A stretch of 64,000 bases of DNA from assembly GCA_964016885.1 (NCBI GenBank), contig OZ024760.1:21390001-21454000 (forward strand), given 5' to 3'. How positions within the stretch are numbered: position 1 is the stretch's first letter; each line of letters starts with the position of its first letter. The position numbers and the translations under genes are program-made. This document shows positions 42,241 to 61,082 of the stretch, piece after piece. The notes under the pieces were generated by a model. That model worked only from the letters and a program-made list of their open reading frames with translations. It did no database searches and was not told where the DNA came from. Source of the stretch: Eledone cirrhosa. Its lineage: Eukaryota.

Positions 42241-42337
42241 TGGAAATAATTTGTCCATTTGTTTTATCTTCTTTCCTTCTGTCATGGCAGTTATTGACCA
42301 GTTGACCAGTTGACCAGTTGACCAGTTGACCAAGAAG

Positions 42338-45760: not shown

Positions 45761-45879
45761 AAGTGGTTGATAAAATAAAGTACCAGTAATGCACTGGGGT
45801 AATTGCTGGCCTTGTGCCAAAAAGTAGAAACAATTGTTAATCTGAAAGCAATTCTTTTTATCACCTTTCACACACTCAG

Positions 45880-46004
45880 GTTTGAAAACTGCGATGATTG
45901 AAAAATATGACTTTGCATCTGGGACCAGCAGCCGAAGTACGAAGCTGATTCATGGAGGTGTACGTTACCTACAGAAGGCTGTCTTCAATTTAGACTATGA
46001 CCAG
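45880..46004 (+). CDS. GPD2: GPD2 coding exon 3
   Basis: [41 protein letters not shown]. Confidence 0.97.
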
Positions 46005-46009
46005 GTAAA

Positions 46010-47012
46010 TATATATATTCATTAGATTATGAACAGGTAAATATATATATATATATATATATACTGTTTCCTGGAGGTGTACATCACCTGTGGAAAGCTA
46101 TCTTTAATTTAGATTATGATTAGGAAAATGTAGATTCTCTTTAAATTATGTACAGGTAAATATATATATTCATTAGATTATGAACAGGTAAATATATATA
46201 TATATATATACTGTTTCCTGGAGGTGTACGTCACCTGTGGAAAGCTATCTTTAATTTAGATTATGATTAGGAAAATGTAGATTCTCTTTAAATTATGTAC
46301 AGGTAAATATATATATTCATGAGATTACGAACAGGTAAATATATATATATATATATATATACTGTTTCCTGGAGGTGTACGTCACCTGTGGAAAGCTATC
46401 TTTAATTTAGATTATGATTAGGAAAATGTAGATTCTCTTTAAATTATGTACAGGTAAATATATATATTCATGAGATTACGAACAGGTAAATATATATATA
46501 TATATATACTGTTTCCTGGAGGTGTACGTCACCTGTGGAAAGCTATCTTTAATTTAGATTATGATTAGGAAAATGTAGATTCTCTTTAAATTATGTACAG
46601 GTAAATATATATATTCATGAGATTACGAACAGGTAAATATATATATATATACTGTTTCCTGGAGCTGTACGTCACCTGTGGAAAGCTATCTTTAATTTAG
46701 ATTATGATTAGGAAAATGTAGATTCTCTTTAAATTATGTACAGGTAAATATATATATTCATTAGATTATGAACAGGTAAATATGTCAGTCCAAACTGTAA
46801 TGTGGCTGGTAATAGGAAGGGCATCTAGCCAGAAAGACCCTGCCAAAAATATTATTCTCACTAATTGCATATACATCCAAGCATGGAAAAATGGACACAA
46901 AAACAACAATGATGATTGTTTAATGGAGATGCATGTTATCTGCAGAAGGCTGCCTTCAATTAAGATTATGAACAGGTAATTACTTATACACATTAGATTA
47001 GAAACAGGTAAA
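46010..47012 (+). repeat. ~147-bp x5 tandem repeat plus relics derived from exon 3 end and donor
   Basis: Unit tggaggtgtacgtcacctgtggaaagctatctttaatttagattatga aligns to exon tggaggtgtacgttacctacagaaggctgtcttcaatttagactatga. Confidence 0.9.
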
Positions 47013-48159
47013 GATATATACTGTATATACTCAGATATGAATTTAGTGAACCATGAGGTCTGAAAGGTTGGCACCTGCTGAATTAGAGTATAGCTTTTGT
47101 TTTACAGCAATGTAATGAGTTTGCATTACATTAAGTTTCAACAACGGTGGGGGGGGGGGGGGGGGGGGTGGATTGGCAGTATCGGTAGAGGGTCGGACGC
47201 CATGCTTTGACGCATAGAGTTACGGCCCTTGCCATTCTGAGTTCAAACCCCGCCGAGGTTGACTTTGCCTTTCATCCTTACGGGGGGTCGATAAAATAAA
47301 GTACCAGTAATACACTGGGTATTTGCTGGCCTCGTGCCAAAAGTAGAAACAATTACATTAAGTTTCAACAAGTTTCTTTAACCTTTGTTTACTTCCAGCC
47401 ACTCATATGCTGGGAGTAGTTTGAAAAGAGAACTTTGTACAGGGATTCATAGAGTAGAAAGGGGGGGGGGGAGACAGCAAGTGAGAGTGAGGGGAGGTAG
47501 AGCGAGAAAAAGAGAGAGTGAGAGCAATAAAATAAAATAAAAAGTAAGATTGAAAGAAAAAAATATGTGTGTGTGTGTATGCGTGCATCGGTGTGAGATT
47601 TTTATCTATATATAAATTTGAGTGACATCCGTCTGTCTGTCTAACACTATGTGTTTGTGTGAATGCATGTGTGTTAAAGGAAGGAAGGGGATGGTGAAAA
47701 AAACTATAGCAAAATAGTGGCTGGTGTTCCATTTACTATGTTGTGTGTGAGTATATGTTTGTGTAAATGCACGTGTGTGTGTGTGTTTGTGTGATTGTAT
47801 GTGTATTTGTGTGAATGTATCTGTGTTTGTATTTTTGTGTGTCTCTGTGTGTTTATATTTATATACTCATACATATAAATGTATGCATGTGCACATACAC
47901 ATACACACACACACATACAAATATGCATCAGCATGTTGAAAAAATTCTAGTGTATTAAAAAGTTCAAATTATAAAAAGTTTGTTGGAAATATTTTCAAGG
48001 AAATGCATAAATAACACCAGTGACAATGTAGTTAATGTAGAAAAACTGCTTCATTGTGAGATACTCACTCCAGATATTTTAGCACCTTATTTATGTGGAA
48101 TTTGAAGTTGGTGAAAATAGTCAAAATATTGACTCCAAGTGTAATCCCCCCCCCTCCCT

Positions 48160-52446: not shown

Positions 52447-52610
52447 GTGGTGGCAAGTACCTTACTATTGGGCCGGTATTAAAATGTATGATTTTGTGGC
52501 TGGGAAACAGAAATTAAAAAGCAGTTATTTTCTTTCAAAGTCAAAGGCTTTGGAATTATTCCCAATGCTGAAGAAAGATGAATTGGTTGGTGCCCTGGTT
52601 TATTATGATG
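52447..52610 (+). CDS. GPD2: GPD2 coding exon 5
   Basis: WWQVPYYWAGIKMYDFVAGKQKLKSSYFLSKSKALELFPMLKKDELVGALVYYD. Confidence 0.97.
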
Positions 52611-53240
52611 GTAAGTTTGGTTGGTTAGTGATTGGTTTATTGTGATGGTAAGTTTGGTTGGTTGGTGATTGGTTTATTGTGATGGTAAGTTTGGTTGGTT
52701 AGTGATTGGTTTATTGTGATGGTAAGTTTGGTTGGTTAGTGATTGGTTTATTGTGATGGTAAGTTTGGTTGGTTAGTGATTGGTTTATTGTGATGGTAAG
52801 TTTGGTTGGTTGGTGATTGGTTTATTGTGATGGTAAGTTTGGTTGGTTGGTGATTGGTTTATTGTGATGGTAAGTTTGGTTGGTTGGTGATTGGTTTATT
52901 GTGATGGTAAGTTTGGTTGGTTGGTGATTGGTTTATTGTGATGGTAAGTTTGGTTGGTTGGTGATTGGTTTATTGTGATGGTAAGTTTGGTTGGTTGGTG
53001 ATTGGTTTATTGTGATGGTAAGTTTGGTTGGTTAGTGATTGGTTTATTGTGATGGTAAGTTTGGTTGGTTAGTGATTGGTTTATTGTGATGGTCAGTTTG
53101 GTTGGTTAGTGATTGGTTTATTGTGATGGTAAGTTTGGTTGGTTAGTGATTGGTTTATTGTGATGGTAAGTTTGGTTGGTTAGTGATTGGTTTATTGTGA
53201 TGGTAAGTTTGGATAGTTGGTCTATGATGGTAAGTTTGAT
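52611..53240 (+). repeat. 37-bp x16 tandem repeat derived from exon 5 end plus donor
   Basis: gtaagtttggttggtt(a/g)gtgattggtttattgtgatg versus exon end ttggttggtgccctggtttattatgatg|gtaagt. Confidence 0.95.
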
Positions 53241-53872
53241 TGGTTGGTTGGTTTATTATGATGTTAAGTTTGCTTGGTTAGTGATTGATTTATTATGATG
53301 GTATGTTTGGATGGTTTATGTTTTATTGTAATGATATGGTTGGTTTGTTGATGGTTTGTTTGGTTGGTTGGTTTATTATGGTAAGTTTGGTTGGTTAGTG
53401 ATTGGTTTATTATGATGGTATCTTTGGTACATTGTAATGGTATGGTTGGTTGATGGTTGGTATATTGTAATGGTATGGTTGATTGATGCTTGGTATATTG
53501 TAATGGTGTGCTATGGTTGGTTTATTGTGAGGGTATCTTTGGTATATTATAATGGTATGGTTGATTGATGGCTGGTACATTGTAATGGTATGGTTGGTTG
53601 ATGGTTGGTATATTGTAATGGTATGCTATGGTTGATGGTTGGTTTATTGTGTGGTATCTTTGGTATATTGTAATGGTATGGTTGGTTGGTTGGTTGGTTG
53701 ATTTTAATGTGATGGAAAACTATATGCATACGCACAAGTATATCTGTACACACATCACACATATGTATACATACGCTCATATCTATGTGCTCATGCCCAC
53801 AATCACACACACACAAACACAGACACACACATAAGGAACAAAAGCTAAAAGAGCTCTAATATTGTGTTGCAG

Positions 53873-53943
53873 GTCAACATTAAGATGTTAGGATGAACAT
53901 TGTCCTGACAATGGCTGCTATCAGGATGGGAGGTTCACTGACG
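53873..53943 (+). pseudogene. Partial duplicate (pseudo-exon) of GPD2 exon 6 with intact acceptor
   Basis: tgtgttgcag|GT CAA CAT TAA GAT GTT AGG ATG AAC ATT GTC...; GAA changed to TAA. Confidence 0.9.
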
Positions 53944-59909: not shown

Positions 59910-61082
59910 TGTTTCCTACATGTTTGCACTGTCCTGCATGTTTACACTGTGTTCTACACCGCCCTACATATTTATAATATCCTACATGTCCACACTGTCT
60001 CACATGTTTGCACTGCCCTCCATGTTTATGCTCACCTACATGTTTACACTGCCCTTCATGATTATAATACCCTACATGTTCACATTGTCCCATATGTTTG
60101 CACTCTCCTACATGTCAACACTCTTACGCGGCCACACTCTCCTACATGTCCACACTCTCTTACCTATTTATACTCTCCTACATGTCTACACTTTCATACA
60201 TGTCTACACTCTCCTACATGTCTACACTCTCCTACATGTCCACACTCTCTTACGTGACTACACTCTCCTACATGTCCACACTCTCCTACATGTCTACACT
60301 CTCTTACCTATTTACACTCTCATACATGTCCACACTCTCCTACATGTCTACACTCTCCTACATGTCCACACTCTCTTACCTATTTATACTCTCCTACATG
60401 TCCACACTCTCCTACATGTCTACACTCTCCTACATGTCCACACTCTCTTACCTATTTACACTCTCCTACATGTCCACACTCTCCTACATGTCTACACTCT
60501 CATACATGTCCACACTCTCCTACATGTCCACACTCTCTTACCTATTTACACTCTCCTACATGTCCACACTCTCCTACATGTCTACACTCTCATACATGTC
60601 CACACTCTCCTACATGTCCACACTCTCTTACCTATTTATACTCTTCTACATGTCCACACTCTCATACATGTCAACACTCTCCTACATGTCCACACTGTCT
60701 TACCTATTTACACTCTCCTACATGTTCACACTCTCCTACATGTCTACACTCTCCTACATGTCCACACTCTCCTACATGTCCACACTCTCATACATGTCCA
60801 CACTCTCCTACATGTCCACACTCTCTTACCTATTTATACTCTCCTACATGTCTACACTCTCCTACATGTCCACACTCTCCTACCTATTTATACTCTCCTA
60901 CATGTCCACACTATCTTACCTATTTATACTCTCCTACATGTCTACACGCTCCTACATGTTCACTCTCCTACATGTCCACACTCTCTTACCTATTTATACT
61001 CTCCTACATGTCTACACTCTCCTACATGTCCACACTCTCCTACATGTCCACACTCTCCTACATGTCTACACTCTCCTACATG
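59910..61082. repeat. 18-bp minisatellite abutting the exon 9 acceptor
   Basis: tccacactctcctacatg. Confidence 0.95.

What the first reader, a model, noticed from the sequence alone, without database searches (positions are those of the whole stretch)
45950..47012. Exon 3 end and donor echoed as a ~147-bp x5 repeat with about 13 CAG|GTAA decoys
Seen: each unit has a diverged copy of the last ~55 nt of exon 3 (its own donor mutated to ggaaaat) followed by two short copies ending CAG|GTAAAT. A further exon-like relic lies at 46923-46980. This is a second, independent case of junction-derived tandem repeats in one gene, with nested rounds of duplication.
Basis: seen in the sequence. Interest (0 to 1): 0.75.

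Follow-up and report, generated by a model that had tools for sequence, protein, structure and literature searches.

The report
Splice-junction "mirage" repeat in octopod GPD2
The end of one exon of an octopus-type metabolic gene, splice signal included, has been copied in nested rounds into the next intron, leaving 13 spare splice signals; this oddity is already known from lancelets and humans and is likely a harmless by-product of local repeat growth.

Summary
Coding exon 3 (45880-46004) of an intact octopod mitochondrial glycerol-3-phosphate dehydrogenase gene (GPD2) is followed by a 147-bp x5.3 array and an older relic. Both echo the exon's last ~61 nt (47-48 of 61 identical; alignment scores 51-63, shuffle maximum 26). 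Thirteen spare CAG|GTAA donors follow the real one. The echoes decayed like non-coding DNA, and only the fivefold amplification is recent. The first donor gives the 720-aa protein; every decoy lies behind an in-frame stop. This is a 'mirage' minisatellite, as in amphioxus Adh3/globins and human F7 intron 7. This scan noted the kind before in this genome (ECM29, NEDD4) and elsewhere. A survey of 406 dynein junctions found echoes at 2.0% against 3.5% of matched intron positions, so no junction bias was seen. GPD2's 3 of 28 echoed junctions match its own intron duplication rate (10-12%). One detail stays open: five copies of one AG|GT site score as both acceptor and donor, a possible poison micro-exon or recursive site. 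Splicing could not be tested on RNA.

The parts
45880..46004 (+). GPD2 coding exon 3 (125 nt; [42 protein letters not shown]), part of the FAD-binding domain
46005..46010 (+). Authentic 5' splice site CAG|GTAAAT; joins in frame to exon 4 (49222) to give the 720-aa protein
   Evidence: 659 of 720 identical to Octopus sinensis GPD2 X2
46005..46042 (+). First 32-nt module (copy of 17 exon nt + 15 intron nt) with decoy donor at 46037; in-frame TAG at 46023-46025 lies before every decoy
46002..46783 (+). 147-bp x5.3 array; unit = 32-nt module + (TA)n tail + diverged exon-end echo with dead donor + diverged 32-nt module; units 59-61 of 61 identical over the echo
46063..46129 (+). First exon-end echo (also at 46210, 46361, 46508, 46651); 47-48 of 61 identical to the exon, ends TAG|GAAAAT
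46136..46187 (+). Dual AG|GT site at 46156 (also 46303, 46454, 46601, 46744): acceptor score at the 45th and donor score at the 77th percentile of real sites; candidate 32-nt frameshifting micro-exon or recursive site, untested
46786..46914 (.). Fragment of a dispersed high-copy repeat (SINE-like by inference) between the array and the relic
46915..47020 (+). Older relic: exon-end echo (46915-46975, 48 of 61 to the exon, in-frame TAA), donor GTAATT at 46976, 32-nt module with donor GTAAAG at 47008
52596..53428 (+). Second, independent mirage: 37-bp array from the exon 5 donor, 17 further ATG|GTAAGT copies
53850..53942 (+). Third case: single duplicate of the intron 5/exon 6 acceptor and exon 6 start, 277 nt upstream of the real one, with an early TAA

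Best explanation
This is a tandem repeat copied from the exon 3/intron 3 border of the GPD2 gene, likely a neutral by-product of local duplication that is tolerated because splicing would keep using the first donor. Shown: the sequence anatomy, the decay of the copies, the intact reading frame through the first donor, and the stop codon in front of all decoys. Inferred history: (1) a 32-bp duplication across the donor; (2) duplication of the last ~61 exon nt plus module and tail (119 bp), giving at least two old copies that drifted about 20% from the exon; (3) insertion of a dispersed repeat that cut off the relic, a further 32-bp module, and loss of one copy's GT; (4) a recent fivefold amplification by slippage or unequal exchange between out-of-register CAG|GTAAAT modules. 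Inferred from the F7 experiments: the most upstream donor is chosen, and any leak to a decoy would give a premature stop and likely decay of that mRNA.
For: The echo is far above shuffles. The exon echo occurs only at this locus: other genome hits cover the AT-rich part, and the best of them, L007, is a (TA)n tract. Changes are spread over codon positions (5/2/5 in unit 2, 4/4/4 in the relic) with stops in both. Exon-unit 48/61, exon-relic 48/61, unit-relic 43-44/61 and unit-unit 59-61/61 give two ages. The first donor yields 720 aa collinear with Octopus GPD2, and read-through gives VNIYIH*. Junction echoes are not enriched: 8 of 406 dynein junctions vs 158 of 4496 matched intron positions, ratio 0.56, gene bootstrap 0.18-1.07; ratios were 0.29-0.56 in all four settings. 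GPD2 introns are 43% minisatellite, and its 3 of 28 matches the local control. Published mirages and F7 use the authentic site.
Against: Donor use is inferred from protein homology, not from reads. Eleven decoys have the same 9-mer as the real donor, so strength cannot explain the choice. One module has drifted into a median-strength acceptor: 0 of 112 real AG|GT donors score that high, and five random changes reach it in 2.6% of 20,000 simulations. GPD2's 3 of 28 is above the dynein junction rate (p = 0.017 to 0.001), which I attribute to its repeat-rich introns and to how the window was picked. The survey is one gene family, and control positions within one duplication are not independent.
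Confidence: 0.82

Rival explanations
1. The array has been recruited as a splicing control: each unit offers a usable acceptor directly followed by a donor (AG|GT) and a 32-nt frameshifting micro-exon, so copy number would tune GPD2 output through poison-exon inclusion or stepwise (recursive) intron removal.
For: Five sites score 9.3 as acceptors (45th percentile of 203 real ones; exon 3's own acceptor scores 3.7) and 10.8 as donors. Only 5 such dual sites occur in 337,787 nt of dynein intron. The first lies 151 nt after the real donor, room for an intron.
Against: All five descend from one event and the test was chosen after seeing it; chance is 2.6% per module lineage, with several lineages to pick from. 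The intron is only 3.2 kb, whereas recursive sites are recalled from very long introns (recalled, no call). The echoes decay neutrally. The region folds no better than shuffles (z = -1.37).
Confidence: 0.08
2. Exon-intron borders in this genome are preferred seeds for tandem duplication (for example through splicing-linked breaks or AG/GT microhomology), so GPD2 shows a junction-biased mutation process.
For: Three echoed junctions of 28 in GPD2, plus an 18-bp array abutting the exon 9 acceptor. Above the dynein junction rate. Two more cases were noted earlier in this genome (unchecked notes).
Against: Dynein junctions are echoed less often than matched intron positions in all four settings, and the bootstrap excludes ratios above about 1.1. 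GPD2's rate equals its local intron rate: 10-12%, and 53 of 532 after removing 15 control hits that are the echoes themselves.
Confidence: 0.07
3. The fivefold array is partly an assembly artefact (an over-expanded repeat).
For: No contig bridges the whole array, and the DNA runs are one sample that may be the assembly's source.
Against: The repeated unit's contig depth is about 4-5 times the unique flank. Units differ by diagnostic variants and (TA)n lengths. The old copies and relic are 20-28% diverged and lie on an exact contig (46754-47136).
Confidence: 0.03

Closest known systems
Amphioxus 'mirage' minisatellites (Adh3; globins BflGb6, BflGb9; troponin C; PGBD5) - PMC3087553 (six passages read), PMC3902484 (one passage read)
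   Same: Tandem copies of an exon-intron boundary inside the adjacent intron; unit length similar (150-160 bp in BflGb6, 157 bp in BflGb9); 81-100% unit identity; some copies keep and some lose the splice signal; inner units homogenised and edge copies diverged; normal splicing reported.
   Different: A mollusc rather than a lancelet; two nested periods (32 bp inside 147 bp) plus an older relic cut off by an inserted repeat; copy-number polymorphism and splicing not tested here.
Human F7 intron 7 37-bp VNTR - PMC1557585 (abstract and discussion read)
   Same: The first element includes the authentic donor, followed by identical pseudo-donors; only the most upstream site is used in F7.
   Different: F7 has a simple 37-bp unit with 5-9 sites, shown by minigenes to be usable but silent; here the unit is compound, there are 13 decoys, all lie behind a stop codon, and there is no functional test. 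The GPD2 exon 5 array (37 bp) is the closer match in layout.
Human tandem repeats that change splicing (ABCA7 VNTR, PMC5954066, search listing only; spl-TR catalogue, PMC10078293, listing and seven passages)
   Same: Intronic repeat next to a splice site whose length could alter splicing; the model for the functional rival.
   Different: Those rest on population and RNA data; none is in hand here.

Membership tests
Mirage minisatellite (exon-intron boundary tandem repeat) | Repeat unit derives from and spans an exon-intron boundary of the host gene | tested here: met
Mirage minisatellite (exon-intron boundary tandem repeat) | Head-to-tail copies in the adjacent intron, specific to the locus | tested here: met
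Mirage minisatellite (exon-intron boundary tandem repeat) | Many but not all copies keep GT/AG signals; inner units homogenised, edge copies diverged | tested here: met
   13 kept donors, 5 GA-mutated; units 59-61/61, relic 43-44/61 to units
Mirage minisatellite (exon-intron boundary tandem repeat) | Host mRNA is spliced normally at the authentic site | tested here: inconclusive
   Only indirect: the first donor gives an intact 720-aa frame collinear with homologues; no junction reads examined
Mirage minisatellite (exon-intron boundary tandem repeat) | Copy-number variation between haplotypes or individuals | not testable with these tools
   One sample, contigs only, none bridging the array
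Tandem exon duplication with alternative exons | Copies are whole exons with own acceptor, open frame and purifying selection | tested here: not met
   Only the last 61 of 125 nt are copied; stops in both lineages; changes at all codon positions
Recursive splice site / poison micro-exon | Acceptor motif directly followed by a donor motif (AG|GT) | tested here: met
   Five sites, acceptor 45th and donor 77th percentile of 203 real sites; defining features recalled, not taken from a call
Recursive splice site / poison micro-exon | Splicing intermediates or inclusion reads at the site; conservation across species | not testable with these tools
   No orthologous genome is held (no relatives); no reads examined

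The most novel reading that the evidence does not exclude
A junction echo has drifted into a working acceptor-plus-donor site and been amplified fivefold, so that this mirage supplies copy-number-variable poison micro-exons or recursive splice points that tune a core metabolic gene; a mirage caught turning into new exon-intron structure.
Probability: 0.07. Interest if true: 0.6.

Novelty: new member of a known kind. Interest (0 to 1): 0.17.

Why it matters
As it stands it is a clear, layered example of a known oddity. Its value is as a natural test of how the spliceosome chooses among identical donors in a mollusc, and as a possible fossil of the exon: the copies read D-Y-E-Q, the state in three Octopus species, while the live exon reads D-Y-D-Q. 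The survey adds a small quantitative point: about 2% of sampled junctions in this genome carry such echoes, no more than ordinary intron DNA, so further cases should be expected and need no special mechanism. If the dual sites were used, it would be direct support for the proposal that mirages seed new exons and introns.

Tried and rejected
RNA search: no RNA holder listed; the three runs are DNA-type contigs of one sample, so they say nothing on splicing. Transposon or dispersed satellite origin rejected: full-length matches occur only at this locus, other hits cover the AT-rich part, and the one inspected, L007, is a (TA)n tract. Alternative coding exons rejected: partial copies, stops, no codon bias. 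Second GPD2 gene or pseudogene: one locus with 15 exon matches, exon 3 single. RNA structure hiding the decoys: fold of 45940-46240 no better than shuffles. Junction-biased duplication not supported. Selection keeping the decoy GTs: 13 of 18 copies keep it, but they come from about four lineages and one module boundary is the recently copied real donor, so the count is not evidence (reasoning). A myosin search was run for the survey and not used. Of 17 dynein regions fetched, 2 gave no usable junctions; 203 of 246 candidate introns were kept. Of the 8 dynein hits, 6 look convincing by eye, one is mostly intronic and one junction is probably misplaced; removing them lowers the junction rate further. 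Paper searches listed no paper on such repeats in cephalopods; only the top 20 of 81 were listed, and the library lacks most subscription journals. Earlier-scan look-ups near this place and in relatives were empty; the look-up by protein was irrelevant.

Full report
Host gene. The stretch 45882-46004 translates to a FAD-oxidoreductase segment. Its best hit is Argonauta hians mitochondrial glycerol-3-phosphate dehydrogenase at 98%, whose cluster holds the Octopus sinensis, vulgaris and bimaculoides proteins. The genome has one locus with 15 exon matches. Fifteen GT-AG exons give an open 720-aa frame, 659 of 720 identical to O. sinensis isoform X2, when coding exon 3 is 45880-46004 and its donor is the first CAG|GTAAAT. 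So this is an intact octopod GPD2. 'Exon 3' counts coding exons only; untranslated exons were not mapped.

Observation. The array spans 46002-46783, period 147, 5.3 copies. Units are 151, 147, 151, 147 and 143 nt and differ in a (TA)n run and a few substitutions. Thirteen CAG|GTAA sites follow the real donor, and five exon echoes end TAG|GAAAAT. Exon-to-copy scores of 51-63 compare with shuffle maxima of 24-26 in 1000 shuffles each, and the best unrelated stretch of the window scores 27. The echo is confined to this locus. Contig depth on the unit is about 4-5 times the flank in one DNA sample, which argues against an assembly artefact but is not independent.

Anatomy and history. Over 61 nt the exon matches the units at 47-48 and the relic at 48; units match the relic at 43-44 and each other at 59-61. 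Units and relic share a replacement change absent from the exon (ATT to TTT) and the same left border, so they likely descend from one non-coding copy. A dispersed repeat lies between them. The relic has its own 32-nt module and tail. The inferred order is: a 32-bp duplication over the donor; a 119-bp duplication of exon end, module and tail, repeated at least once; insertion, drift and a further module; then a recent fivefold amplification whose left edge is the real CAG|GT. Changes fall on all codon positions and include stops, as expected for non-coding drift. The short modules and relic read GAT TAT GAA CAG (DYEQ) where the live exon reads DYDQ. Glu is found in 64 of 78 matched homologues, including three Octopus species, and Asp in 10, including Argonauta. 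The copies may preserve the older exon state; a mutation in the first copy would look the same.

Splicing consequences. Reading on from exon 3 gives VNIYIH-stop at 46023-46025, so any decoy donor yields a premature stop. With a matrix from 203 dynein junctions of this genome, the real donor and 11 decoys score the same (10.8, 77th percentile) and the two relic donors score 9.6. Choice must therefore depend on position. In human F7, identical downstream donors are usable but silent because the most upstream one is selected (PMC1557585, abstract and discussion). I infer the same here; it was not shown on RNA. One module (46156 and four copies) also scores as a median acceptor (9.3). No real AG|GT donor does (0 of 112), dual sites number 5 in 337,787 intron nt, and random change reaches the score in 2.6% of trials. 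It has a single origin and was noticed after the fact, so it is a lead only. A 32-nt exon there would shift the frame.

Is the junction special? GPD2 has three echoed junctions of 28 (exon 3 donor, exon 5 donor, exon 6 acceptor) and an 18-bp array abutting the exon 9 acceptor. To test for bias I located dynein heavy-chain genes, fetched 17 regions, and placed junctions by homology, keeping 203 of 246 candidate introns in 15 genes. A junction counted as echoed if a copy spanning it lay within 1.5 kb in the intron. Controls were intron positions outside dispersed repeats and microsatellites whose 'exon' side had no copy behind it. Result: 8 of 406 junctions against 157 of 4496 controls (Fisher p = 0.11). 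Ratios were 0.56, 0.43, 0.50 and 0.29 in four settings, with gene-bootstrap upper limits of 0.73-1.07. GPD2 exceeds the dynein junction rate (p = 0.017-0.001) but not its own intron control (32 of 271, p = 0.66); its introns are 43% minisatellite. Limits: one gene family, junctions placed by homology, clustered controls. Two of the eight hits are doubtful on inspection.

Comparison with what is known. Tandem copies of exon-intron borders were named 'mirages' in amphioxus Adh3 and described in globins with 150-160 bp units, 81-100% identity, partial loss of splice signals, homogenised inner units and normal splicing (PMC3087553, passages), and in troponin C and PGBD5 (PMC3902484, one passage). 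The structural features are met here; normal splicing is supported only indirectly, and length polymorphism could not be tested. Earlier notes of this scan report the same kind in this genome (ECM29, NEDD4) and in eight other listings; I did not check those loci. My five paper searches listed no cephalopod report, which is weak evidence given the library's limits.

Verdict. Observation confirmed and the reading of its origin supported. It is a new member of a known kind, most likely neutral (0.82). Interest 0.17. The boldest open reading, a poison micro-exon or recursive site built from the echo, has probability about 0.07.

Noticed in passing
window 52596-53428: 37-bp mirage array from the GPD2 exon 5 donor with 17 further ATG|GTAAGT copies, decaying toward 53700; closest in layout to human F7.
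   Followed up: partly
window 53850-53942: Single upstream duplicate of the exon 6 acceptor and exon start, 277 nt before the real one, with an intact GCAG|G and an early TAA; an upstream decoy acceptor.
   Followed up: partly
window 59914-61082: 18-bp array (about 65 copies) ends 4 nt before the exon 9 acceptor AG and supplies its pyrimidine tract.
   Followed up: partly
window 42294-42332: TTGACCAG x4.9 just upstream of the GPD2 start codon; could be repeated acceptor-like sites, not examined.
   Followed up: no
L032:8190 (+ strand) and L047:3948 (- strand): Two multi-copy donor mirages in dynein heavy-chain genes (about 28-bp and about 21-bp units); four more single junction duplicates in the same survey.
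   Followed up: partly
G000:C19:6713795-6717545 (+) and 6799030-6802783 (-): Two near-identical, oppositely oriented dynein AAA_6 exon sets about 85 kb apart; recent inverted duplication or assembly duplicate.
   Followed up: no
window 45860-45879: Exon 3's own acceptor is weak (4th percentile of 203 real acceptors). Two O. bimaculoides protein records begin inside exon 3 and exon 5; possible alternative splicing or annotation gaps.
   Followed up: no
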